Source: a virus (Duplodnaviria; Caudoviricetes). Taken from it: DNA of 64,000 nucleotides. The stretch spans positions 64,001 to 128,000 of the IMG/VR virus record IMGVR_UViG_3300033463_000027. The stretch is one strand, 5' to 3'. Positions 3,200 through 30,113 of the stretch are shown in pieces. The notes under the pieces were generated by a model that saw nothing but the letters and a program-made list of their open reading frames with translations, did not search any database and was not told the origin of the DNA. The first letter of the stretch is position 1; every line of letters begins with the position of its first letter. Both the position numbers and the translations under genes were made by a program.

Positions 3200-5050
3200 T
3201 ATATTATTTAATTTATAGTAGGTTGAAGGGGTGATGATAGGGGTCTGAGATAGGATTTTTGGGGTGTTTGATTAATTATACGTGTTTAATTGTTTCGGTG
3301 AGATTGCGGAAAGGGTTGATTTTCAAGGGTTAGAGAGGGGTTGGGTAGGTTTGATTTATCGTTTTTCGATAAAAAGAAAAAGTAGTAGGAGTGGTGATTC
3401 CTACTACTTGGTGGAGAGATAATTGGGTATTTTGTTTGTATTTACGTGGGGTTTACGTGTTTTTGGGGTAGGGGAGTACGTGGGGGTAAAGAGGTACGGA
3501 AGGTTTGGGAGCGGGGTGAGTTGATTTGGTGGTAACCTAACCACGCCTTGCGGGGTCGGGGTCAGGTCATGAACGTAAAGTCACCCCGGTCTCTGAGCGA
3601 GATCGTCCGGGTATAGTAGTTTGTGCGGTTCAAGTACGCGGGTTTATCCCGCGTTTAGAGCAATTGCAAAAATTCAATAATATCGTCGTTTGCGGCGTGT
3701 TTTGCCGTCGGCGGTGGGTGCTCTTTACATTTCGTTTTTTGCACAAAGTCGAAATGTCAAGGCAAATTAACCCTCATGCAAGCCGAACAAATCAGCGGTT
3801 GACTTTTCAGGGGCTTGAATTTGTAGCAGAATAACAGGTGTTATAGCGTGATATCATTTTGATATCATTTTGATATCGGTATACGTTACGCCTAAACAAA
3901 TATGTTTAGTCTACATTTTCTCCACTCTCGGTGTATAAAATGCAGATTTACAATCACTTACAATTACTTACAATTTGTTTGACAAAATACAAATATCCTC
4001 GATCACTTCCGCAAATTACTAAACAAATATGTTTAAGTTATCAATACTAAACAAATATGTTTAGTATAACTATCATTATTATATTTATTACAAATTGGTT
4101 ACAATATATTACAATATGGTTACAATAATTACAAATCAATTACAATACTAATTATTACAAAACAGTTACAAATAGTTACAAACTAATTACAAATATTACA
4201 ATAAAGTATCAACAAAACTTTCAACACTATTCAACAAACTTTCAACAAAAATAAGTTTACCATAAAAACAAATACATAAAATATCGGTCAAATAAATCAA
4301 TCTGATTTTCTTCGATCGTATAACTATACGATGCACATATACAAATCAGCTACAAATCACCTATACAATATATAGTATATATCAATACAAAAAAGCATAA
4401 AAGACACTACATCTTGTATGCTAACATATTATCATATACAATTATATTATGATTTACACAAAAAATCATTCCGCTATATACAAAAATATATACCTATATG
4501 CAATTATTTCATTACATTCATTTAACTATTAACATCTTATTCACATTCACCAATACCGCATATTATATGCAATATACACAACTTTCAACAATTAAATTTA
4601 TGCACATTTACTTTAATTATCAATCACATACATATTAATAATCTATTCATAAATTGGTGATCTGCCTGAGCAGGCATTATATATAAATCATATATAATAT
4701 AAATCATAACAAATATAAATCAACTATAATCAAATCTGCAAATATTACAAATCAAACATAATATGAATTATACAATATCCGATATATACATAACAAACAT
4801 CAATCATTTTACAAGTAAATTACAATTAAGCTGCGCATTATCAATATTTATTAATTGATAAATATTGCGTTATGTCAAACTATTTGTAAATAACTGTAAA
4901 TGATCTTGGTGCCTGAGCAGGCACTTTATATATATTTTAAACATATTATACTTTAAATATAACTATCCTGATCTCCGATACCTTCCCCCGAAAAATCATA
5001 TATAACACACTTTATCAAACTGTAAGCGATTTAAGGCGGGTTTGTATGTG
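3200..5050. other. Large non-coding region with strand-composition switch; candidate genome terminus/packaging region or origin
   Basis: G/T-rich about 3200-3560, GC-rich hairpins about 3550-3760, A/C-rich about 3900-5000 with many TTACAA repeats. Gene orientation diverges around it. Confidence 0.5.
3892..4064. repeat. Three palindromic CTAAACA-aata-TGTTTAR boxes
   Basis: Copies at about 3892, 4019 and 4047. Confidence 0.75.
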
Positions 5051-5119
5051 GGTAGTATAGTTATATAGGGTATACACTAAAAACGTCATACGGGGCTTGT
5101 TAGGCGGTTTATAGGTATT

Positions 5120-5341
5120 TTATAATTCACCTTTAATTATTTTATTCAAATCTGTCAAGGATATACCAAACATATATTTAAACGATGTTTGGGCGTTTAT
5201 ATTCATTGCTTGCGCTTGCAAAACTAATGTTTTTATTATATAATTTTGTAAATCTTTATCGGATTCAAAAACCATATAACTAATATCATCTGTTATATTA
5301 TTATCTGATTTTTTCAATTCAGATTTCTTTATTGTAAACAT
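5120..5341 (-). CDS. Hypothetical protein
   Basis: 73 aa ORF downstream of the RHH gene. Confidence 0.55.
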   Translation of the reverse strand: MFTIKKSELKKSDNNITDDISYMVFESDKDLQNYIIKTLVLQAQAMNINAQTSFKYMFGISLTDLNKIIKGEL

Positions 5342-5347
5342 TATTAT

Positions 5348-5557
5348 TTACTCCAAATCTATATTATTATCTATTATATAATTAGTTGCTTTTATTATAT
5401 ATTGTGCTATACTCATATTATATAAAGATGCTGTATTTCGTATCATTTCCGCATCTTCGGGTTTTATCTTTATAGATATATTTTTATAATGGGATTTAGA
5501 ATATTTGGCATTTGCTCGAATTTTCGCATCACTATTCTTTTTTTGTGCATTTTCCAT
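5348..5557 (-). CDS. Ribbon-helix-helix (Arc/antitoxin-like) DNA-binding protein
   Basis: AKIRANAKY..YKNISIKIKPEDAEMIRNTASLYNMSIAQYI is a typical RHH pattern. AAGGAG RBS. Confidence 0.7.
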   Translation of the reverse strand: MENAQKKNSDAKIRANAKYSKSHYKNISIKIKPEDAEMIRNTASLYNMSIAQYIIKATNYIIDNNIDLE

Positions 5558-19442: not shown

Positions 19443-19515
19443 TGTACCCAAAACGCTATTGACAACAAGAGCGAAAGGATATATAATAGATAATAGAAAT
19501 ATACAATGTACCTAA
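19443..19515 (+). promoter_or_regulatory. sigmaA promoter with TGTACCYAA operators
   Basis: TGTACCCAA-N7-TTGACA-N17-TATAAT, second box at 19507. Confidence 0.8.
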
Positions 19516-19535
19516 TCAGAGAGGTGAAAGCAAAA

Positions 19536-20099
19536 ATGACTTATGAAGTAGTTATACAGGAAACCTTACAGCGTTCAATCTGTGTTGAAGCGGAGACAGA
19601 ACAAGAAGCTGTAGAGAAGGTGGACGAAATGGTATCAAGCGGAGAATTGGTACTTAACGCTGATGACTTTACAGACAGAAAGTATAAGGTCGCTCCCATG
19701 TATGCGGCGAGTGTAGTTTGCCCGAACAGAAAAGATGAATGGGTAAGACGTATTCTCGCTATCGGAACAGGGGAGGATATGACATTGCAATTAAACCGAA
19801 ATACTTTTATGTGGGTGGAGCGATTTATAGAAAATGAAACTGACATACTCTTAGTCGAGATCGACAAGGGGTCTATTGAGAACTGTGACGGAGAAGATAT
19901 AACAGTCTTTAATAAAGTTAAGGAAACGTATAAGCTCGATTTGATGGACATAAGAACGTGTGTAGACACGTTACTTGATTTGTTTGATTATTATGTCAAA
20001 CCCACCACAAGTCCCGCCGATGTGGTCAGGGGAGTTTTTGGAATGGTAGTTGCAATTGGGTTGTTGTCAACATTTTCGGTGCTGATGTCACTATTATGA
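19536..20099 (+). CDS. DpnD/PcfM-like N-terminal domain protein with C-terminal TM helix
   Basis: MTYEVVIQETLQRSICVEAETEQEAVEKV...VLNADDF. Confidence 0.65.
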   Translation: MTYEVVIQETLQRSICVEAETEQEAVEKVDEMVSSGELVLNADDFTDRKYKVAPMYAASVVCPNRKDEWVRRILAIGTGEDMTLQLNRNTFMWVERFIENETDILLVEIDKGSIENCDGEDITVFNKVKETYKLDLMDIRTCVDTLLDLFDYYVKPTTSPADVVRGVFGMVVAIGLLSTFSVLMSLL

Positions 20100-20317
20100 A
20101 AGAAAGGAGTGAACAAACCATGCAGAATGACATTGATGCTGTTATCAGACAGGTTTTGGTGCAAGCAGTCAATGGCAAGGTATCAGATTTCTATGCTTTG
20201 GTAACTGCGGAGTACGAGCCTGATATGTACACTCGTGAAGATGACTATTTTGTGGCGAGAAAAAGAATACAGCATAAGGCAGAAACCGTAAGGTTTGTTC
20301 ACCTCTATGCGGAGTAA
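20096..20317 (+). CDS. Hypothetical protein
   Basis: ORF track; AAGGAG RBS before an internal ATG. Confidence 0.55.
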   Translation: MKERSEQTMQNDIDAVIRQVLVQAVNGKVSDFYALVTAEYEPDMYTREDDYFVARKRIQHKAETVRFVHLYAE

Positions 20318-20369
20318 ACAAACGCAAAGTGCGTTTGACATATACTATTATCTAAAGGAGAAATGTCCT

Positions 20370-21593
20370 ATGAACACATTAACAACAGCAAATGTAAGCG
20401 GAATGTCACTTCCCATTATGGAAGTAAACGGAACAAGAGTGTTGACTACAGCACAGTTAGCGGAGTGCTATGGAACAACGGAGCGCAGGATATCTGAAAA
20501 CTTTAATGCCAACAAAGATCGGTATGAAAAAAACAAACATTATGTTGCTCTCGAAGGCGAAGAGAAACGGAATTTTCTCAACCATACGAAAATTCCGTAT
20601 GGTTCAAAAGCCGCAAAATTTTATCTCTGGACAGAACGCGGAGCTTTACTTCATGCAAAGTCTCTTGGAACTAATAAGGCATGGGAAGTATACGATATAT
20701 TGGTGGACAATTATTTTACCTCTGCTAAGATAGTTACCATCACGCCTACCGATGCTGCTCGAATACTTGCAGAGAATAATCTAAACAACAGAAAAATCAA
20801 TCAAGCGAACGTTCGGAAGTACGCCGACGATATGCTACTTGGTAAGTTTGAACTTAACGGAGATACTATTCGCTTCTACGCCGATGGAACCTTGGCAGAT
20901 GGACAGCATAGACTTATGGCTTGTGTGCTTTCAGGAGTTCCTTTTAAAACCTATGTAGTTAAGGGTTTGGAGAAAAAGGTTCTTCCCACTATTGACTGCG
21001 GCAAGCCCCGGAATATGGTTGAAACTCTGAACATGATAGGTTGTGGAGTAAATAAGATGATAGTTCCTGCGATGAACCTTTACTTTAATAATAGAGCGAG
21101 TCTTACTGCTAATCAGGTACAAGTCCTTTGGGATAAGTATTCGGATAAACTTGAAAAACTATGTACTATATTAAAGGGAAGTCACCACGATCACATTCTC
21201 TCACAGAAAGACGTAAGGGCATACTTTATGCACTTACTGTTAGCGGAGAACTGGACAGAAGATGATGTTCAAACCTTTGTCAACGGATTAAAGACCAAAC
21301 CTAATTGCGCAACCAATTTCGATTATACTTGTTATAATTTCAGACGTTGGTACGACCGCAGGATTCATAGAAAGATTACCGATGGCAAGAAGTGTAAGAA
21401 CAATCCCAAGTCTTTGATGACTATTGAAGGATTATGTACTGTTGCGGATTCGTATATACAAGACAAGCAGTATAACAAGTTTGCTGGAACTAAGTTGACA
21501 CGCGCCAATGGAGTTCTTGAAAGAGGACAAGCGTTAGCTCAGATACAGTTTCAGTTAATGGAATCCTCTAACTTAACATTGACCTCTACTTAA
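20370..21593 (+). CDS. ORF6N antirepressor domain fused to a ParB/Srx-like (DGQHRL) domain
   Basis: VLTTAQLAECYGT..LWTERGALLHAKSL followed by N.NNR, NGDTI and DGQHRL. Confidence 0.75.
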   Translation: MNTLTTANVSGMSLPIMEVNGTRVLTTAQLAECYGTTERRISENFNANKDRYEKNKHYVALEGEEKRNFLNHTKIPYGSKAAKFYLWTERGALLHAKSLGTNKAWEVYDILVDNYFTSAKIVTITPTDAARILAENNLNNRKINQANVRKYADDMLLGKFELNGDTIRFYADGTLADGQHRLMACVLSGVPFKTYVVKGLEKKVLPTIDCGKPRNMVETLNMIGCGVNKMIVPAMNLYFNNRASLTANQVQVLWDKYSDKLEKLCTILKGSHHDHILSQKDVRAYFMHLLLAENWTEDDVQTFVNGLKTKPNCATNFDYTCYNFRRWYDRRIHRKITDGKKCKNNPKSLMTIEGLCTVADSYIQDKQYNKFAGTKLTRANGVLERGQALAQIQFQLMESSNLTLTST

Positions 21594-21657
21594 TTGTTCA
21601 TAGGAAGGGCTTTCGCGGCTGTGCCTAACAACCGCGATTTATAATCGCTTAGAGTGC

Positions 21658-21945
21658 GTCAATAACTCACTGCTTATAGAAGCAGGAGCTTGTAAATGCT
21701 CAAATTGACTACCCTAAGTTCTTCAAGAACTACGTTATGCAAGAATTGTATAAGTTCTTTTATACTAAATAGTTACCCGTGAGCGTTATGCCTAACTTGC
21801 GGCTCTAAGGCAAATGGTTAAATAGTTCTGTGGAGTAGGAACAGTGCTGTTCGCAGTAAAACCTTGCAATAACATTGGGGAAGGCATTTAACAGCTTTGT
21901 ATGTGCTGTCTTACAGAGTAGAACATACAATTTGACTGAAAGGAG
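21658..21945 (+). ncRNA. IscB omegaRNA scaffold
   Basis: About 290 nt structured leader (GTCAA..TTGAC stem, CTACGTT, AACATTGG.GAAGG) upstream of iscB. Confidence 0.8.
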
Positions 21946-23237
21946 TGTTTTTTGGTGGTATATGTGATAAACAAAAACGGACAGCCGCTTATGCCAACCG
22001 AGAGACACGGTAAAGTGAGACGATTGCTTAAAATAGGAAAGGCTAAAGTAATCAAACGCTGTCCGTTTACTATTCAGCTTCTTTATGCTACGACTGATTT
22101 TGTACAAGAAGTCACTTTGGGAGTAGATAGTGGGAGTAAGCATATTGGAGTATCAGCGACAACAAAAGACAAAGTTTTGTATGAAGCTGATATAGAGCTT
22201 AGAAACGATATTGTCAAGCTGTTATCTGCAAGAAGAGAGGCAAGACGTACAAGGCGCAATAGAAAAACTCGTTACAGACAGGCTCGGTTTAACAACCGCA
22301 GTAAGCCCGATGGTTGGCTTGCCCCGTCAGTGCAACACAAGGTCGATGCTCATTTGACTGTCGTTCGTAAAGTGTATGAGATTCTTCCAATTGCAAAAAT
22401 CATAGTCGAGGTTGCTTCTTTTGATATTCAGAAAATCAAAAATCCATATATTAAGGGAGAAGAATATCAGCAAGGTGAACAGCTTGATTTCTGGAACGTA
22501 AGAGAGTATGTGCTTTTCAGAGATAGTCATGTGTGTCAGTGTTGCAAGGGCAAATCAAAAGATAATATTCTCAATGTACATCACATAGAATCACGGCAGA
22601 CAGGCGGGGATGCTCCCAATAACCTTATCACTCTCTGCGAGACCTGCCATTTAGGGTATCATAAAGGGACTGTGAAACTTCCAAAGACCATAAAGCGGGG
22701 GATGTCTTTTAGAGATGCAGCTTTCATGGGAATAATGCGATGGGCGTTTTACAATAAACTTAAATATATATATCCGAACGTTAATCTGACTTACGGATAT
22801 ATCACCAAAAACGCCCGTATTAAAAACACTCTTTCCAAAAGCCACTTTACAGATGCAAGGTGCATAAGCGGAAATCCGAAAGCTGTATCCGATGATGTAG
22901 TTTTCTATCAGAAAAAAGCCAGATGTCATAACAGACAGATACATAAATACAACATACTCAAGGGCGGGTTGAAAAAGAAAAACCAAGCACCGTATGAAAT
23001 GTTCGGTTTTAGGTTGTTTGACAGGGTAAAGTATCTTGGAAAAGAGTACTTTATCTTTGGTAGGAGAGCATCAGGATATTTTGATATAAGAGACTTACAA
23101 GGAAATAAGGTTAACAAAGGGAGTATTTCCTATAAAAAGTTGACCTTTATCGAACGGGCTAAAACTTATTTAACTGAAAGGAGGAAGGAGCATTCCTCCC
23201 CGACTTTTGAAGTTGGGGTATCCTGCTCCTATTTTAG
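21658..23237 (+). mobile_element. IS200/IS605-family IscB element
   Basis: Begins GTCAATAAC, ends in a CCCCGACTT/AAGTTGGGG hairpin. Flanks rejoin as AGAGTGC|ATGAAC. Confidence 0.8.
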
Positions 23238-23241
23238 ATGA
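21952..23241 (+). CDS. iscB: RNA-guided endonuclease IscB
   Basis: PLMP N-terminus, RuvC-I GVDSG, Arg-rich bridge helix, RuvC-II VEVA, HNH (HHI..GG..NLITLC..CH), RuvC-III HFTDA. Confidence 0.93.
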   Translation: MVVYVINKNGQPLMPTERHGKVRRLLKIGKAKVIKRCPFTIQLLYATTDFVQEVTLGVDSGSKHIGVSATTKDKVLYEADIELRNDIVKLLSARREARRTRRNRKTRYRQARFNNRSKPDGWLAPSVQHKVDAHLTVVRKVYEILPIAKIIVEVASFDIQKIKNPYIKGEEYQQGEQLDFWNVREYVLFRDSHVCQCCKGKSKDNILNVHHIESRQTGGDAPNNLITLCETCHLGYHKGTVKLPKTIKRGMSFRDAAFMGIMRWAFYNKLKYIYPNVNLTYGYITKNARIKNTLSKSHFTDARCISGNPKAVSDDVVFYQKKARCHNRQIHKYNILKGGLKKKNQAPYEMFGFRLFDRVKYLGKEYFIFGRRASGYFDIRDLQGNKVNKGSISYKKLTFIERAKTYLTERRKEHSSPTFEVGVSCSYFR

Positions 23242-23331
23242 ACTTAAAGTGATTACCATATAGTAAACGTGCGTATTATAGCGGTTCAGCGGAGTTATAA
23301 ATCCGCGCATTGTCTTGAAAGGAGTATAAAT

Positions 23332-24297
23332 ATGGATAACACAGCAAGAAAGCTAACTATCAGCGGAAACAACATTGATATTTCCGTAGTCAAGTCCAAG
23401 AAAAAGGACAGAATACAATCTAAGATTGTAACCGAGGACGAGTTCGCGGAGATTTATCGCTCTGCTGATGCGATAACTTCTGCAAAGGACATAGAAAATA
23501 TGTGTCTTACGCTCTATAAAAGGGGTTATGTAGATAGCATGGTTCTCTTTATCGTTGGAACCAATATTGGCTATCGTCCTGTCGATTTACAAGCGTGGAG
23601 ATGGGAGCAGATTACCGATGAAAACGGAAACATTCTTCGGAGATTTGCTATGAACGAACACAAGACAAGCAAGATGACAGTAGTTAATTTCAATGAGACT
23701 GTTGTTAAACTTCTTACATGGTATAGGGATTATAAAATGTCTCAACCCAAGTTTATGTGGGAGAATTATGTTTTTTCTGTAAGCATAAAAAATGCGGCAA
23801 GAAGTTATGTGTGGTATGATAAAGAAAACGATATTATCTATCACCAAGATAGGAAACATAAACAGTTGGGGCTTGTATATTATCATGAGGGCAAAAATAT
23901 TATTACTTGTCCTGCGTGTGAAGTTATCGGAAACGAGAAGTATCTTAAATTGCAAAAGCCCATTACGACTGAAACTGCCAGTAACAATTTTATTGAAGCT
24001 GCGGAGAAATGCGGAATTGAGGGACATTTTTCGTCATATACAATGCGGCAAACGTTCAGCTTTTGGTTTAGAAAAACCTTAAAAGAGGACGAAACTCTTG
24101 CAAATGTAGCTGATGAATACTTCTCGACCATGCTGCTGAGTGGATATTTTCAGCATAGCAGTTTAAAGGTCACGCAAAAACACTATATGCGAGATCAAGT
24201 TGCGTTATTCAGACAGATTGTAAACAAGATGAACCTTGCTAAAGATTTTGTGGATTGTCTGGTCGAAAAGGATAATGCAGTACAGATGTGTTTATAA
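23332..24297 (+). CDS. Tyrosine recombinase (YopP/XerC-like)
   Basis: GYRPVDL (R), HKTSK (K), SYTMRQTF (HxxR with H>Y), QHSS (H), QKHY (Y). Confidence 0.8.
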   Translation: MDNTARKLTISGNNIDISVVKSKKKDRIQSKIVTEDEFAEIYRSADAITSAKDIENMCLTLYKRGYVDSMVLFIVGTNIGYRPVDLQAWRWEQITDENGNILRRFAMNEHKTSKMTVVNFNETVVKLLTWYRDYKMSQPKFMWENYVFSVSIKNAARSYVWYDKENDIIYHQDRKHKQLGLVYYHEGKNIITCPACEVIGNEKYLKLQKPITTETASNNFIEAAEKCGIEGHFSSYTMRQTFSFWFRKTLKEDETLANVADEYFSTMLLSGYFQHSSLKVTQKHYMRDQVALFRQIVNKMNLAKDFVDCLVEKDNAVQMCL

Positions 24298-24358
24298 TAA
24301 GGTAGTTACCGAGGAAACTCGGAAAAATATATTAACTAAATTTTAGGAGGAATTTTTT

Positions 24359-24940
24359 ATGAAAACTTTAAAGGTTACTTGGAAAGGCACAAAGACTCTG
24401 ATTATGCACTCTTGCCAGTGCGTTAATCCCCTTAATCCGATTCAAAAGGAATTGAAAAAGTACACTTCAAAAAGAACCAAAACTGATGAAGATTTACAGA
24501 GAATTTCTGATCTTGAATGGGAAGCTGGGGCTTATTGGAAAGAAGGTATGGGACTTTATATCCCCGGAGAAAATGTGATAGCAACCATTATTAATGGTGC
24601 AAAACTCTTCAAGAAGGGTACTGATGTTCAAAAGTATGTTTCTGTTCCTAATGTGCATATTCCGTTTAATTACGGAGAAAATCTCACTAAGGAAGAACTG
24701 ATTGCTGATAAAGATTATCGTGATGTAAGACCTATGGTCGTTGGTAAGGCAAAGGTTATAAGAACAAGACCAAGATTCGATCAGTGGAATATTACTTTTA
24801 ACCTTGAATATGAAGAGGATAAGATTGACCGTGATGTTGTCATTCTTGCATTAGAAAATGCAGGAAAGTATGTGGGGCTTTGCGATAGTCGCAACTATGG
24901 CTATGGGCGATTTGTCGTAAAAGCAGAAGAGTTGGATTGA
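24359..24940 (+). CDS. Stand-alone Cas7/RAMP-like protein
   Basis: N-terminal KVTWKGTKTLIMH, LYIPGENVIATI (cf. RAMP IPGSSIKG) and C-terminal glycine-rich loop GLCDSRNYGYGRFVV. AGGAGG RBS. Confidence 0.75.
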   Translation: MKTLKVTWKGTKTLIMHSCQCVNPLNPIQKELKKYTSKRTKTDEDLQRISDLEWEAGAYWKEGMGLYIPGENVIATIINGAKLFKKGTDVQKYVSVPNVHIPFNYGENLTKEELIADKDYRDVRPMVVGKAKVIRTRPRFDQWNITFNLEYEEDKIDRDVVILALENAGKYVGLCDSRNYGYGRFVVKAEELD

Positions 24941-24945
24941 GATAG

Positions 24946-25378
24946 GGATTATATGTTTGGTTCTGTTCTGTTGTGTTTCGTTAGGTTCCGTTCAGTTCAG
25001 TTGCGCTAAGTTATGTATTGTAGGTTGTGTTTTGTTTCGTTAAGTCGAGTTTCGTTGTGTTGTGTTGCGTTAGGTTGGGTATTATAAGTTAAGCTCCGTT
25101 GCGTTGAGTTTAGTTGTGTTAAGTTCAGTTTGGTTGGGATAGGTATTATAAGTTAAGTTAAGATGTATTATGTTGTGTTTAGTCAGGTTGCGTTAAGCTA
25201 AGTTAAGTATTATAAGTTAGGTTCTGTTTCGTTGTATTGAGTTATGTTGGGGTTCGTTTGGTTCGGTTATGTTTGGTTGAGCTAAGTATTATAAGTTGCG
25301 CTATATTAAGTTATGTTGAGTTAGGTCAAGTTGCGTTGCGTTATGTTAAGTTGCGTTGGGTTAAGTCAAGCATTATAG
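24946..25378 (+). repeat. Array of six GTT-NN pentamer units separated by a 9-nt GTATTATAA repeat (putative guide-RNA array)
   Basis: Units 24955-25014 (12 pentamers), 25024-25078 (11), 25088-25142 (11), 25152-25206 (11), 25216-25285 (14), 25295-25369 (15). Delimiters at 24946, 25015, 25079, 25143, 25207, 25286 and 25370. Confidence 0.9.
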
Positions 25379-25413
25379 GCTTTGAAAAAAAATACCAAGA
25401 AAGGAAAATTATT

Positions 25414-25878
25414 ATGAATGAGTTAATCAACAATAAGACAATCGCGGAGGTTCTTGCGGAAGAAATTGATAAACTTCCCTATGAAACTGTAATCGAGCAT
25501 GGACAAATAGAGTCCATCATCGGAGTTCCGAGAGGTCTGAACAAGTATGGTTCTACTATTGCAAAAGCAAAGAAGTTACTTATAGAGAAGCGGAAACATA
25601 TTGAGAGTATACGGGGTGTTGGTTATCGGATAGTCGCGCCTGATAACGTGATAGATCGTTCACTTCATCACATTAAAAGAGGTTGTAATGAAATCAAAAA
25701 AGGGCAGGAAATCTTAGATCATGCACCTGTTAATGATATGAGTGTAGAGGGTCGTGAAGCCTATCGTAGAGTATATGACAGAGCTGTTATCCTTGATGCT
25801 GCTATGAAAGGCGCTGCCGTGGAGCTTAAAGAGCTTGCGGGTAAACGTCCTCATCCGTTTTTGTTTTGTAAGAAATGA
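25414..25878 (+). CDS. Winged-helix-like protein downstream of the RAMP array
   Basis: ATG after AAGGAA RBS; IESIRGVGYRIV wing motif. Confidence 0.7.
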   Translation: MNELINNKTIAEVLAEEIDKLPYETVIEHGQIESIIGVPRGLNKYGSTIAKAKKLLIEKRKHIESIRGVGYRIVAPDNVIDRSLHHIKRGCNEIKKGQEILDHAPVNDMSVEGREAYRRVYDRAVILDAAMKGAAVELKELAGKRPHPFLFCKK

Positions 25879-26075
25879 GGAATTGTTATGATAGTCTATA
25901 CTGTATTTAAAACTCGATGGAATCCCGATAGTAACTATGACGAAACTTTTCTTATAGACATATATTCCAACGAACAAACAGCTATGCAAGAGTGTATTAG
26001 TTATAATAGTAGTCATGATAACAGTGAAAGTTTTTTTGTTTTATGAAGATTATACTGTCAAGGAGGACTAAAAAA

Positions 26076-27115
26076 ATGAACGAAGAAAGATATAAGAAGT
26101 GGTTTGCAGAAGCCAAAGAACAGACTATTGAAACTCTCCCTGAGTTTATGAAAAGAATCTTGGACGAGCCACAAAGTTATGATTCTATTGTTGAAGCAAT
26201 TACTGCTTGTGCGCTCGGAGCTGCTTGGGCGGCAGACCATCATGAGAATGGTGGAATCACAGGCTTTCAGGGCAGTTGGGTGATGTGGCAATTCATTAAG
26301 CACTGGATGTGCAAGGGAGATAGTTGTGGATTAAAGCTTGTTGATTATGATGATATGCTTTATCCTCAGTATGACTATAAGTTCTGCGATAAAACAATTG
26401 ATAGGAGTACGTGGAAAGCCTTACAGAAGAAAGCGGCAGAGTATTTAGCCGAGGGTCGCGGAGTTGCGGAAGTAAAAGCGCACTGGCGGTCGATTGTTAA
26501 TGGCGTTGTTCCTTTTGGTTATACAGTAAAGGAGGACTAATCATGAACAAAATAGAAAAGCTGAATGAACGTATTGCACAGCTCACAGACCTTGTGAAGT
26601 CCGGCGAAGAAACAATCTCCGCGACTAAGGAAATGTTAAAGTTAGCGGAGCAAGAAAGGGACAGGCTTGCGGATCAGCGGACGGAAATAGAGCCGAAGTT
26701 TGAGAGAATGCATCAAACTAAATCGTATTGGAGATTAGCATTTGACAATGCGTTTGGTTGTGGAGCTTGGGTTCTTAAACAGGTAGAACGCGGATGGTAC
26801 GATTTCAACAACATGACTGATTTTAAGGGCAATAACTATTTTCACACCGAAAAACGAGCGCAGGAAGTCGCTGACAAGATTAACTTCTTATTGAAGTTAG
26901 AAAGATTACATGACATATATTGCCCCGATTATGTGCCTGATTGGAATGATTTTTTTGCTTGCAAATGGTATGTTTGGATGAATACCGATGATAGGTTATA
27001 TTGTTGCACAAGAACAGCAAGTGCTAAAGACCCTTGTGGAGTATATTTCCATTCGGAAGAAATTGCACAGAAAGTCTGTGACATATTGAACGCCGAATTG
27101 GAGGAAAAGAAATGA
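26076..27115 (+). CDS. Two hypothetical genes (26076-26540, 26543-27115)
   Basis: AGGAGG RBSs; GGITGFQ and PDW motifs. Confidence 0.65.
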
Positions 27116-29117: not shown

Positions 29118-30113
29118 ATGTCAAACATAATTATCAGACAAGGTAGAAACGCCATTCAACAAAGTGCTGTCAATGACCATACTATGAGCAGAAATGCAAG
29201 GGGTATGCTCATGGACTTACTCTTCATGGACAGTGAAGCAAGTGTGAGATCACTTACAGATATGTCCAGTGATGGACAAGCAAAGGTTACTTCTGCTTTA
29301 AAAGAGTTAGAGGACAAAGGTTATCTTATTCGTGAAAGAACAAGAGTGAATGGTAAGCTATCCAAGTATAATTATGTTTTAACTATGCCTAACAGTTCTG
29401 ATACCACATCTGATTCTGCAAGGGATTTATTCATTGAAAGTCTTGAACAGCCTGTATGTGATACGGTAGAATCTCATATAGCTATATCTGACATAGGTAA
29501 TTCTAATGAAGAAATCCCTTGTGTGATAAACCATGACAAGGCTAAAACCACGGTAAATCAAGGCTTTTCGGAGTGTCAGTATGCTTATTCAAGCTATGAT
29601 CTGATAGATAAGAATATAAATAATAATAATATATATTTATCTAATCAATCATCAAATCCATCTTCTGTTAAATCTCAGATAGGTTATGATACTCTTGTCA
29701 ATGAAGTGGACAAGCAGGATATAGAATTGGTAGATATGATGGTCGCTATCATATCCGAAGTGTATAGCTCTCAGAGCGCATGGACAAGAGTGTCAGGGCA
29801 AAGTATGTCTACTCGGAAGGTTGTAACACAGTTCATAAAACTTGGAAAGGAAGATTTACTCTATGTCGTAGAATGTATGAATAAGACCAACACTTTAATT
29901 AGGTCTATAAAACCCTATCTTGTCACAAGCCTTTACAATGCTGCTATAACGCAGGAGTCTCGCAAGTCAGCAGCCAAATTTAACAGACGCGAGAGAAAAC
30001 GTGACTGTTGTGATAGTTACTATGATAATTACGGAGAACATAGCTCGTTCTCTATCGACAAGTTCTATGAGATAGCAAATGGGTATGACCCTTTGCACAT
30101 TACTTTTTCATGA
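29118..30113 (+). CDS. HTH + DUF6017-like replication-initiator-type protein
   Basis: SSDGQAKVTSALKELEDKGYL HTH; C-terminal IKPYLVTSLYNA. Confidence 0.65.
   Translation: MSNIIIRQGRNAIQQSAVNDHTMSRNARGMLMDLLFMDSEASVRSLTDMSSDGQAKVTSALKELEDKGYLIRERTRVNGKLSKYNYVLTMPNSSDTTSDSARDLFIESLEQPVCDTVESHIAISDIGNSNEEIPCVINHDKAKTTVNQGFSECQYAYSSYDLIDKNINNNNIYLSNQSSNPSSVKSQIGYDTLVNEVDKQDIELVDMMVAIISEVYSSQSAWTRVSGQSMSTRKVVTQFIKLGKEDLLYVVECMNKTNTLIRSIKPYLVTSLYNAAITQESRKSAAKFNRRERKRDCCDSYYDNYGEHSSFSIDKFYEIANGYDPLHITFS

What the first reader, a model, noticed from the sequence alone, without database searches (positions are those of the whole stretch)
24955..25369. Decoded NN strings look like codon positions 1-2 (wobble-skipping target code)
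Seen, NN per unit. U1 TG CT CT GT TC AG CC CA CA GC AA AT. U2 GT TT TC AA GA TC GT GT GC AG GG. U3 AA CC GC GA TA GT AA CA TG GG AG. U4 AA AA GT AT GT TA AG GC AA AA AA. U5 AG CT TC GT GA AT GG TC TG CG AT TG GA AA. U6 GC AT AA AT GA AG AA GC GC AT AA GC GG AA AA. 53 of 74 start with a purine (15 of 15 in U6) and AC never occurs. Inference: read as NNx codons they give protein-like patterns, e.g. U6 A[IM][KN][IM][DE][RS][KN]AA[IM][KN]AG[KN][KN], U5 ..GS[CW]R[IM][CW][DE][KN] and U4 [KN][KN]V[IM]VY[RS]A[KN][KN][KN]. Targets would then be coding DNA with every third base ignored, making recognition robust to synonymous escape. Any dinucleotide string can be read this way, so this is suggestive only. 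I found no match among this window's translated ORFs; a nucleotide-level search was not done.
Basis: partly seen in the sequence, partly recalled or inferred. Interest (0 to 1): 0.8.

Follow-up and report, generated by a model that had tools for sequence, protein, structure and literature searches.

The report
Phage VIPR guide-RNA array, GUU variant
The five-base repeat tract is the guide-RNA array of a VIPR system, a CRISPR-like phage weapon first described in 2026 preprints.

Summary
Window 24955-25378 holds 74 pentamers in six units of 12, 11, 11, 11, 14 and 15, each closed by a 9-nt GTATTATAA-like delimiter. The NN lists, 53/74 purine-first and the absence of AC all check out.

The gene 14 nt upstream (24359-24940) is a Vipr protein: its family profile hits PDB 36pp 'SUSP1 Vipr protein' at E 1.7e-61, and its model has a Cas7-like fold. 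The gene downstream (25414-25878) looks like a winged-helix accessory protein. So this is a VIPR locus (bioRxiv 10.64898/2026.04.26.720920 and .720927).

In VIPR, Vipr protomers hold the constant triplet of each repeat. The NN letters pair with DNA while skipping one target base per repeat, usually the codon wobble.

New here:
- The constant triplet is GUU, not GGY. The SUSP1 tryptophan that stacks on G2 is serine in this protein.
- Pooled over 112 GUU-type units from 25 loci, NN composition matches sense-strand codon positions 1-2 (r = 0.97). Only a period-3 target fits that.

No target was found for any of the six guides in the collections I could search, so what they aim at is unknown. This scan has met VIPR before on other DNA: 476 notes in at least 327 genomes.

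The parts
24359..24940 (+). vipr: 193-aa stand-alone RAMP (Cas7-like) protein. One protomer is expected to bind each pentamer of the guide RNA.
   Evidence: The family profile A1 hits PDB 36pp_D 'SUSP1 Vipr protein' at E 1.7e-61; the single sequence hits at E 4.8e-28 over residues 1-188. It matches phrog_4652 at E 3.9e-49 and has no Pfam hit. The AF2 model has pLDDT 97.6. Top Foldseek hits are type VII Cas7, Cmr4 and Csm3 at E about 1e-5. SUSP1 contact residues H17, K33, R39, E71, K82, G87, R138, D177 and R179 are kept; W178 is Ser177 here (alignment, residues named).
24955..25378 (+). vrRNA array: six guide units of (GUU-NN)n on the same strand as both flanking genes. It starts 14 nt after the vipr stop and ends 35 nt before the vap start.
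   Evidence: The RNA folds no better than shuffles (z = +1.27). No terminator-like site lies in 24200-26100.
24955..25023 (+). Unit 1: 12 pentamers (24955-25014) plus the degenerate delimiter GTATTGTAG.
25024..25087 (+). Unit 2: 11 pentamers (25024-25078) plus GTATTATAA.
25088..25151 (+). Unit 3: 11 pentamers (25088-25142) plus GTATTATAA.
25152..25215 (+). Unit 4: 11 pentamers (25152-25206) plus GTATTATAA.
25216..25294 (+). Unit 5: 14 pentamers (25216-25285, one of them GGTTC) plus GTATTATAA.
25295..25378 (+). Unit 6: 15 pentamers (25295-25369) plus GCATTATAG.
25414..25878 (+). vap-like accessory gene: 154 aa, an N-terminal winged-helix-like domain followed by a helical bundle.
   Evidence: It is syntenic after the array in 21 related loci. 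The AF2 model has pLDDT 85.7 with the order H-E-H-H-E-E and then three helices. Foldseek matches are weak but consistent: the full-length model to GntR/VanR-type repressors, and residues about 1-75 to OmpR/PhoB-type DNA-binding domains (probability 0.9-0.98, rmsd 3.3-4.5 A over about 70 columns, E >= 0.015). There is no Pfam hit and only a weak phrog_5926 hit.

Best explanation
This is a phage-borne VIPR (Viral Interference Programmable Repeat) locus of three parts: vipr, a six-unit vrRNA array and a winged-helix vap gene.

Inferred by homology: the array is transcribed with its neighbours and cut at or near the 9-nt GUAUUAUAA delimiters into guides of about 64-84 nt. Vipr protomers then polymerise along each guide, one per pentamer. 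They bury the constant G1-U2-U3 and present N4-N5.

Shown for SUSP1 and P. fulva VIPR, inferred here: the 11-15 presented dinucleotides pair with one strand of double-stranded DNA while one target base per repeat is flipped out. The guide therefore reads NNxNNx..., normally codon positions 1-2 of a gene in a rival mobile element, and silences its transcription. Synonymous third-base changes do not help the target escape.

Specific to this clade of Lachnospiraceae phages and prophages: repeat position 2 is U (the least conserved of the three constant letters) instead of G. This goes with loss of the G-loop aromatic residue that stacks on G2 in SUSP1 Vipr.
For: - Vipr homology to a solved, experimentally characterised protein and a Cas7-like fold.
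- The vipr-array-vap order is conserved in 21 related viral and Lachnospiraceae loci.
- A blind scan of viral contigs for GTTNN x7 recovered ten unrelated loci with variable-NN arrays. Nine have a Vipr-family ORF beside the array by HMM.
- Over 112 units from 25 loci, G1 is 94%, U2 82% and U3 93% conserved, while NN is hypervariable. Units are mostly 8-13 pentamers long (published range 9-16).
- The window's six units have no counterpart among 64 other clade units: the best overlaps sit in the upper tail of the all-pairs background, with none near the 0.9-1.0 of truly shared units. Near-identical phages L128-L131 share identical flanks but only one unit perfectly (plus one at 0.73).
- Sister loci L127 and L141 carry canonical GGY-NN units ending GGATT+4 nt, where ours end GTATT+4 nt. 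This fixes the register as G1 U2 U3 N4 N5.
- The G-loop triplet is D-S-R in the window and 20 clade loci, where the arrays examined are GUU-type. It is D-Y-R or D-C-R in the two GGY loci and D-W-R in SUSP1.
- Pooled N4 is A .363, C .138, G .301, T .199 against codon position 1 at .35/.14/.31/.20. Pooled N5 is A .389, C .162, G .169, T .279 against codon position 2 at .38/.19/.15/.28. Dinucleotide r = 0.97; the next best model reaches 0.69.
- 75 of 112 units are best fitted by sense positions 1-2, which is what simulation gives if all of them are.
- The period-3 model wins by 27-37 nats.
- No self-target in the phage's own genome, as the papers report.
- The array RNA is unstructured.
- Mechanism taken from 10.64898/2026.04.26.720920 and .720927.
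Against: - No target was found for any of the six guides. Exact NNx patterns of U1-U5 gave 0 hits in IMG/VR, as did the last 12 NN of U6.
- U6, in full and as its last 12 NN, gave 0 hits in JGI metagenome contigs.
- U6 at <=3 mismatches gave 0 hits in 401 Lachnospiraceae genomes, and U2 at <=2 mismatches gave 0 in 301.
- U1, U2, U3 and U6 at <=3 mismatches gave 0 hits in five genomes that carry close Vipr homologues.
- Best matches in 1.15 Mb of fetched phage loci are at shuffle level for every skip.
- 15 of 74 pentamers depart from GUU.
- The published tail pseudoknot of type II vrRNAs has no counterpart in the 9-nt delimiter.
- The codon-like composition is significant only when pooled. For this array alone it gives 1.2 nats.
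- The W-to-S link with G2-to-U2 rests on two GGY sister loci, and distant GUU-type Viprs have W, F, L or N at that position.
Confidence: 0.88

Rival explanations
1. The tract is a binding array for an oligomeric RNA-binding protein in the manner of TRAP on (G/U)AG-NN repeats. GUU would be the only thing read and NN would be meaningless spacer. The RNA would act as a sponge or a regulatory leader and not as a guide.
For: This was my first reading. It rested on the 5-nt period, about 11-12 repeats per unit and an unstructured RNA. No target was found for any unit.
Against: - The adjacent protein is a Vipr/Cas7-type RAMP that forms a helical filament, not a ring (paper read).
- NN is not compositionally neutral. 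It reproduces codon positions 1 and 2 separately (r = 0.97), which spacers have no reason to do.
- Units turn over between near-identical phages as guides do.
Confidence: 0.04
2. It is a genuine VIPR array, but in this GUU-type clade the decoding differs from the published rule. It might use another skip length, need fewer pairing repeats, or aim at non-coding or regulatory DNA or at RNA. Alternatively, some of these six guides are decayed.
For: - None of the six NNx patterns has a match in any collection searched.
- The constant triplet and the residue facing position 2 differ from the studied systems.
- 20% of the pentamers are degenerate.
- U1, U2 and U5 are individually not best fitted by sense codon positions 1-2.
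Against: - Pooled composition fits only a target period of 3 with NN on codon positions 1-2. Skips 0, 2 and 3 are worse than background.
- The residues that hold the skipped base and the non-target strand in SUSP1 (K33, R39, K82, G87) are conserved.
- The searches were exact-match or covered a few hundred species representatives. The papers accept >=80% NN match in full host pangenomes, so my negative result is weak.
Confidence: 0.07
3. It is a DNA-level repeat element, such as iterons, a centromere or packaging site, or a primase-site cluster, read as double- or single-stranded DNA.
For: - The tract is a strongly periodic intergenic repeat in a mobile element that has a replication initiator gene 4 kb away.
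- GTT is the template trinucleotide recognised by T4-type primase (my own knowledge, not tested).
Against: - The arrays always run on the coding strand of their neighbours and sit beside a Vipr gene in unrelated phages.
- Homologous arrays are shown to be expressed as small RNAs that co-purify with Vipr (paper).
- A 5-bp pitch is too short for successive double-stranded-DNA-binding dimers.
Confidence: 0.01

Closest known systems
VIPR systems (Vipr + vrRNA + vap); experimental exemplar is type II of Escherichia phage SUSP1 and a Pseudomonas fulva prophage (bioRxiv 10.64898/2026.04.26.720920, 10.64898/2026.04.26.720927, 10.64898/2026.10.15.759431; PDB 36pp)
   Same: - A homologous ~190-aa stand-alone RAMP with the same RNA- and DNA-contact residues.
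- Pentamer repeats with a constant triplet and hypervariable NN, 11-15 repeats per guide (published 9-16).
- Phage-borne, a two-gene locus with a DNA-binding-type accessory gene, and no self-target.
- NN statistics that fit wobble-skipping targets.
   Different: - The constant triplet is G-U-U (position 2 is U at 77-89%) instead of G-G-Y. The residue stacking on G2 (W178) is Ser.
- Guides are separated by a 9-nt delimiter and lack the long 3' tail with a pseudoknot.
- The array lies between vipr and vap.
- The host range is Lachnospiraceae.
- Pooled guides look almost only sense-stranded, whereas the paper reports targets on both strands.
- The targets of these guides are unknown.
'Staggered' vrRNA arrays with 1-nt overlapping vrRNAs (legend of fig. 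S18 of 10.64898/2026.04.26.720920), and the alternative repeat consensuses NNNGG, YNNNG and NNNNG named in its methods
   Same: The units follow one another without long tails. [quoted passage not shown] The authors state that a non-GGY consensus exists.
   Different: I could read only the legend and the methods, not the figures or tables. I cannot say whether a GUU (YNNGU) consensus or this Lachnospiraceae clade is among their seven types.
Class 1 CRISPR backbone: Cas7/Csm3/Cmr4 filaments on crRNA
   Same: The same RAMP fold (Foldseek E about 1e-5), one protomer per fixed step of guide RNA, and a thumb that breaks the guide-target duplex periodically.
   Different: - There are no CRISPR repeats, no cas genes and no adaptation module.
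- The step is 5 nt with 3 buried and 2 pairing, instead of 6 nt with 5 pairing and 1 flipped.
- The guide itself is periodic.
TRAP (trp RNA-binding attenuation protein) sites, 11 (G/U)AG triplets with 2-3-nt spacers
   Same: A constant triplet plus a two-base interval, about 11 repeats, on single-stranded RNA.
   Different: The resemblance is analogy only. The protein is unrelated, it forms a ring and not a filament, and the spacers carry no information.

Membership tests
VIPR system | A Vipr protein: a stand-alone minimal RAMP homologous to characterised Vipr | tested here: met
   The profile hits 36pp_D 'SUSP1 Vipr protein' at E 1.7e-61 and the single sequence at E 4.8e-28, full length. The fold is Cas7-like.
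VIPR system | Conservation of the residues that hold the repeat, the skipped base and the non-target strand (SUSP1 H17, K33, R39, E71, K82, G87, R138, D177, W178, R179) | tested here: met
   In the alignment read, nine of these ten are identical. The exception is W178, which is Ser177 here; it is the residue facing repeat position 2, the letter that differs. Other named contacts differ: M72 to N, K88 to T and C173 to V.
VIPR system | Adjacent tandem pentamer repeats with a conserved triplet alternating with hypervariable NN, 9-16 repeats per vrRNA | tested here: met
   Six units of 11-15 pentamers lie 14 nt after vipr. Conservation is G 94%, U 82%, U 93% with variable NN over 112 units. Units are unique between relatives.
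VIPR system | The canonical GGY (YNNGG) repeat consensus | tested here: not met
   The triplet is GUU in 59 of 74 pentamers, and GGU occurs once. The paper allows 'a related consensus'. Sister loci L127 and L141 of the same clade have GGY with a homologous unit end. This is therefore a variant and not an exclusion.
VIPR system | A vap accessory gene with a DNA-interaction domain next to vipr | tested here: inconclusive
   A conserved 154-aa gene follows the array in 21 loci. The model has winged-helix topology, but the structural matches are weak (E >= 0.015). No sequence comparison with the published vap1-6 was possible.
VIPR system | NN specify DNA targets under the 1-nt skip rule, wobble-aligned | tested here: inconclusive
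   Pooled NN composition equals sense codon positions 1-2, and the period-3 model wins by 27-37 nats. No actual target was found for the six guides.
VIPR system | vrRNAs are expressed, processed and bound by Vipr | not testable with these tools
This needs small-RNA sequencing or a pull-down.
CRISPR-Cas | A CRISPR repeat-spacer array plus cas adaptation and effector genes | tested here: not met
   There are no direct repeats other than the pentamers and the 9-nt delimiters. The neighbours are IscB, an integrase-like gene, an anti-repressor and a replication initiator.

The most novel reading that the evidence does not exclude
The GUU-type arrays may mark an orthogonal branch of VIPR with two features.

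1. Repeat position 2 has switched from G to a relaxed U, through loss of the aromatic G-loop residue (W/Y to S). Its Vipr would then load only its own guides and would be immune to rival or decoy GGY vrRNAs.

2. Its guides are almost exclusively sense-stranded (maximum-likelihood antisense fraction 0; 20% antisense costs 9 nats). This would point to template-strand-only silencing, or to a guide-making process that copies coding strands or mRNAs.
Probability: 0.3. Interest if true: 0.55.

Novelty: new member of a known kind. Interest (0 to 1): 0.35.

Why it matters
That shows the rule can be read off the sequence. As biology, though, the locus is one more VIPR system.

Three things add to what is in print:
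- A clade in gut Lachnospiraceae phages and prophages uses GUU-NN instead of GGY-NN. Together with the matching change in the G-loop, this is a natural experiment on how Vipr reads its repeat and a possible source of orthogonal Vipr-guide pairs.
- Whether an array's guides aim at wobble-aligned coding DNA can be tested without knowing any target, from the composition of N4 and N5. Here that test also suggests a strand bias.
- A simple GTTNN pattern scan finds such arrays in many unrelated viral contigs, nearly always beside a distant Vipr gene.

What these six guides silence in the gut remains open.

Tried and rejected
- TRAP-like ring sponge, iteron or centromere, and primase-site cluster were my first ideas. 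I dropped them once the upstream protein matched SUSP1 Vipr.
- A DGR-style origin, (GTTAA)n mutated at A, was considered only in thought and not pursued. There is a single array in the genome and the Vipr match explains the locus.
- Rfam: nothing relevant in 24000-26500.
- A literature search on pentanucleotide, GTT and phage found nothing useful. The papers were found only through the PDB molecule name.
- The supplementary tables of the discovery paper hold nothing searchable on Lachnospiraceae, GTT or the types, so the VIPR type of this locus could not be assigned.
- Target searches were all negative:
  - own genome and 1.15 Mb of fetched loci at skips 0-3 against shuffles;
  - exact unit patterns in viral contigs: U1-U5 and the last 12 NN of U6;
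  - U6, in full and as its last 12 NN, in metagenome contigs;
  - U6 at <=3 mismatches in 401 and U2 at <=2 mismatches in 301 Lachnospiraceae genomes;
  - U1, U2, U3 and U6 in five genomes that carry close Vipr homologues;
  - three guides of sister prophage arrays in nine such genomes.
- These searches were exact-match or covered small samples, so they do not show that targets are absent.
- A one-residue code for repeat position 2 fails outside the clade: distant GUU-type Viprs have W, F, L or N at that position.
As a result, the closest relatives' arrays (Vipr 95-97% identical, P0001 and P0002) and any RNA evidence could not be examined.

Full report
**What is in the sequence.** Between two + strand genes lies a 473-nt gap (24941-25413). 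Most of it is written in fives. From 24955 the sequence reads GTTNN seventy-four times in six blocks of 12, 11, 11, 11, 14 and 15 pentamers. The register is unbroken inside each block. Each block is closed by nine bases: GTATTGTAG once, GTATTATAA four times and GCATTATAG once.

So are 53/74 purine-first, 15/15 in U6 and the absence of AC. A four-pentamer GTTNN pattern occurs 23 times in the window, all here, against 0.03 expected. The 139.5-kb genome has no second array. The RNA would be unstructured (z = +1.27 against shuffles), and no terminator-like site separates the array from its neighbours.

**How the identification came about.** My first reading was a TRAP-like protein-binding RNA in which NN is spacer. 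A scan of viral contigs for seven GTTNN in a row changed that. Besides plain microsatellites, it returned ten unrelated loci with the same kind of array. In these the NN letters vary, the arrays are intergenic and run on the strand of the flanking genes, and the units hold about 11-12 pentamers with a short closing word.

Relatives of the upstream 193-aa protein carry the same three-part module of protein, array and a 150-160-aa gene. They come from 13 viral contigs and nine genome records titled Lachnospiraceae, Dorea, Clostridia, Eubacteriales or 'Bacterium D16-36'. The protein family is very large, with 2,324 clusters at 50% identity, and has no Pfam model.

A profile of 70 members hit one solved structure, 36pp 'SUSP1 Vipr protein', at E 1.7e-61. 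The single sequence hit it at 4.8e-28 over its full length. That name led to three 2026 preprints.

**What is known about the family.** VIPR systems consist of:
- Vipr, a minimal stand-alone RAMP;
- vrRNAs made of 9-16 pentamers in which GGY alternates with hypervariable NN;
- usually a DNA-binding or nuclease accessory gene, vap.

Vipr protomers polymerise along the vrRNA, one per repeat. They bury GGY and present NN. [quoted passage not shown] They searched a host pangenome with 0-3 wildcard bases between the NN. They then confirmed it by competitive binding, GFP repression, reprogramming and cryo-EM. The skipped base usually falls on the codon wobble position, which they interpret as resistance to synonymous escape. 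Natural targets are satellites, rival prophages and other VIPR loci. No guide targets its own contig.

**Membership.** The model of the window protein (pLDDT 97.6) is most like Cas7 of type VII, Cmr4 and Csm3. I read the alignment against the residues named in the cryo-EM paper. H17, K33, R39, E71, K82, G87, R138, D177 and R179 are conserved. W178, which stacks on the second G of GGY, is Ser177 here.

The downstream protein models as a winged helix plus a helical bundle. Its structural matches to GntR- and OmpR-type DNA-binding domains are weak but consistent. That suits the published 'WH-like' vap genes, though I could not compare sequences.

The one defining feature not met is the GGY consensus, because here it is GUU. 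Two sister loci settle the register. L127 and L141 (Vipr 56% identical) have canonical GGY-NN units ending GGATT plus four bases, where ours end GTATT plus four. The repeat is therefore G1 U2 U3 N4 N5.

In the window and 20 clade loci the G-loop triplet is D-S-R. In the two GGY loci it is D-Y-R and D-C-R, and in SUSP1 it is D-W-R. Position 2 is also the least conserved constant letter: U 77% in the clade and 89% in the window. Outside the clade the link fails, since distant GUU-type Viprs have W, F, L or N there. This is a lead and not a code.

The paper's methods mention other consensuses (NNNGG, YNNNG, NNNNG) and 'staggered' arrays whose vrRNAs overlap by one base. Our nine-base delimiter is two pentamers minus one base, which fits that wording. 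I could not see the figures or tables.

The direct test failed to find anything.
- In the phage's own genome and in 1.15 Mb of fetched phage loci, the best NN matches equal those of order-shuffled NN at every skip. The first result is expected for a VIPR system.
- Exact NNx patterns gave no hit in the viral contigs for U1-U5 or for the last 12 NN of U6.
- U6, in full and as its last 12 NN, gave no hit in the metagenome contigs.
- With mismatches allowed, U6 (<=3) in 401 and U2 (<=2) in 301 Lachnospiraceae species genomes gave nothing, and neither did the reversed-pattern control.
- U1, U2, U3 and U6 gave nothing in five genomes that carry close Vipr homologues.
- Three guides from sister prophage arrays gave nothing in nine such genomes.

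The papers accept >=80% NN match in complete host pangenomes. My searches were exact or covered a small sample, so this negative result is weak.

**An indirect test that worked.** If guides copy coding DNA with the skipped base on the wobble, N4 and N5 must carry the separate base compositions of codon positions 1 and 2. That can only show if the target period is a multiple of three. With skips of 0, 2 or 3 the phase would rotate along the guide and the signal would average out.

I parsed 112 units from 25 loci: this window, its clade, and the unrelated GTT-type arrays. I compared 891 canonical pentamers with the long ORFs of this phage.

| Position | A | C | G | T |
|---|---|---|---|---|
| N4 | .363 | .138 | .301 | .199 |
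| Codon position 1 | .35 | .14 | .31 | .20 |
| N5 | .389 | .162 | .169 | .279 |
| Codon position 2 | .38 | .19 | .15 | .28 |

- The 16 dinucleotide frequencies correlate at r = 0.97. The next best model, genome background, reaches 0.69.
- The result holds separately for the clade (0.91) and for the unrelated arrays (0.94).
- Unit by unit, 75 of 112 are best fitted by sense positions 1-2. Simulation gives 65% when every unit is drawn from that model and 19% for background.
- Marginalising over strand and starting phase, the period-3 model beats background by 22 nats and skips 0, 2 and 3 by 27-37 nats. Swapping N4 and N5 abolishes the signal.
- For the window's six units alone the gain is only 1.2 nats. 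U6 is clearly codon-like (+4.1), while U1, U2 and U5 are ambiguous.

The missing AC is not general, since AC makes up 4.5% of the pooled pentamers.

**An unexpected detail.** The pooled composition leaves almost no room for antisense guides. The maximum-likelihood fraction is 0, and 20% antisense costs 9 nats. The discovery paper, in contrast, reports targets on both strands. This could reflect strand-specific silencing or the way guides arise in these phages. It could also be a compositional coincidence that I cannot exclude without real targets.

**Guide turnover.** The window's six units have no counterpart among 64 other clade units. The best overlaps (0.60-0.67 NN identity over 8-12 pentamers) sit in the upper tail of the all-pairs background (median 0.44, 95th percentile 0.59), with none near the 0.9-1.0 of truly shared units.

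Four near-identical phages (L128-L131) share identical flanks, but only one unit is shared perfectly (among L128, L129 and L131), plus one at 0.73 between L128 and L131. Two different bacterial genomes (L137, L139) share one guide that differs at two NN letters.

**Verdict.** This scan has also met VIPR many times on other DNA: 476 notes in at least 327 genomes.

The locus is a new member of a known kind. Its modest new points are the GUU repeat with its G-loop change, the target-free compositional test, and the apparent sense-strand bias.

Noticed in passing
window 21952-23241 (+), with the 358-nt gap 21594-21951 upstream: A 429-aa IscB RNA-guided endonuclease (NCBIfam guided_IscB E 4.6e-115; Pfam RRXRR + HNH) lies 1.1 kb upstream of vipr. 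The upstream gap could encode its omega RNA. The phage would then carry two unrelated RNA-guided systems side by side.
   Followed up: no
window 19506-24297 and 29118-30113: The neighbourhood looks like a mobile-element accessory region: a DpnD/PcfM-like protein (19506-20099), an ORF6N anti-repressor (20295-21593), a weak tyrosine-integrase-like gene (23269-24297) and a DUF6017/DnaD-like replication initiator (29118-30113).
   Followed up: partly
L121 about 3577-5070 (IMGVR_UViG_3300045988_154462): In this relative the array after vipr stops after about one unit. A transposase-like ORF sits between vipr and vap (vap at 5071-5541). This looks like an insertion sequence that has disrupted the guide array.
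   Followed up: no
L125 3622-3692 and 5001-5140; the same in L103: These loci carry a second guide array downstream of vap. One of its units is 88% NN-identical to the unit between vipr and vap, so guides are duplicated within a locus.
   Followed up: no
L137 3328 and L139 3189: Two different bacterial genomes (Bacterium D16-36 and a Lachnospiraceae MAG) share one guide that differs at two NN letters, TT to CT and AT to AG. Read as codons, TTx and CTx can both encode Leu, so the first change could follow a synonymous first-position variant of the target.
   Followed up: no
L014 7961-8026, 10409-10504, 10842-11100: Three variable-NN GTT arrays in separate intergenic gaps, with no Vipr HMM hit in the 11 kb fetched. 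They may be solo vrRNAs of the kind described in the October 2026 preprint, or they may belong to a Vipr outside the locus.
   Followed up: no
L127 3576-3990 and L141 3076-3500: Within the same Vipr clade (56% identity to the window protein) these two loci use canonical GGY-NN repeats with the same unit architecture. The G-to-U switch at repeat position 2 therefore happened inside one clade.
   Followed up: partly
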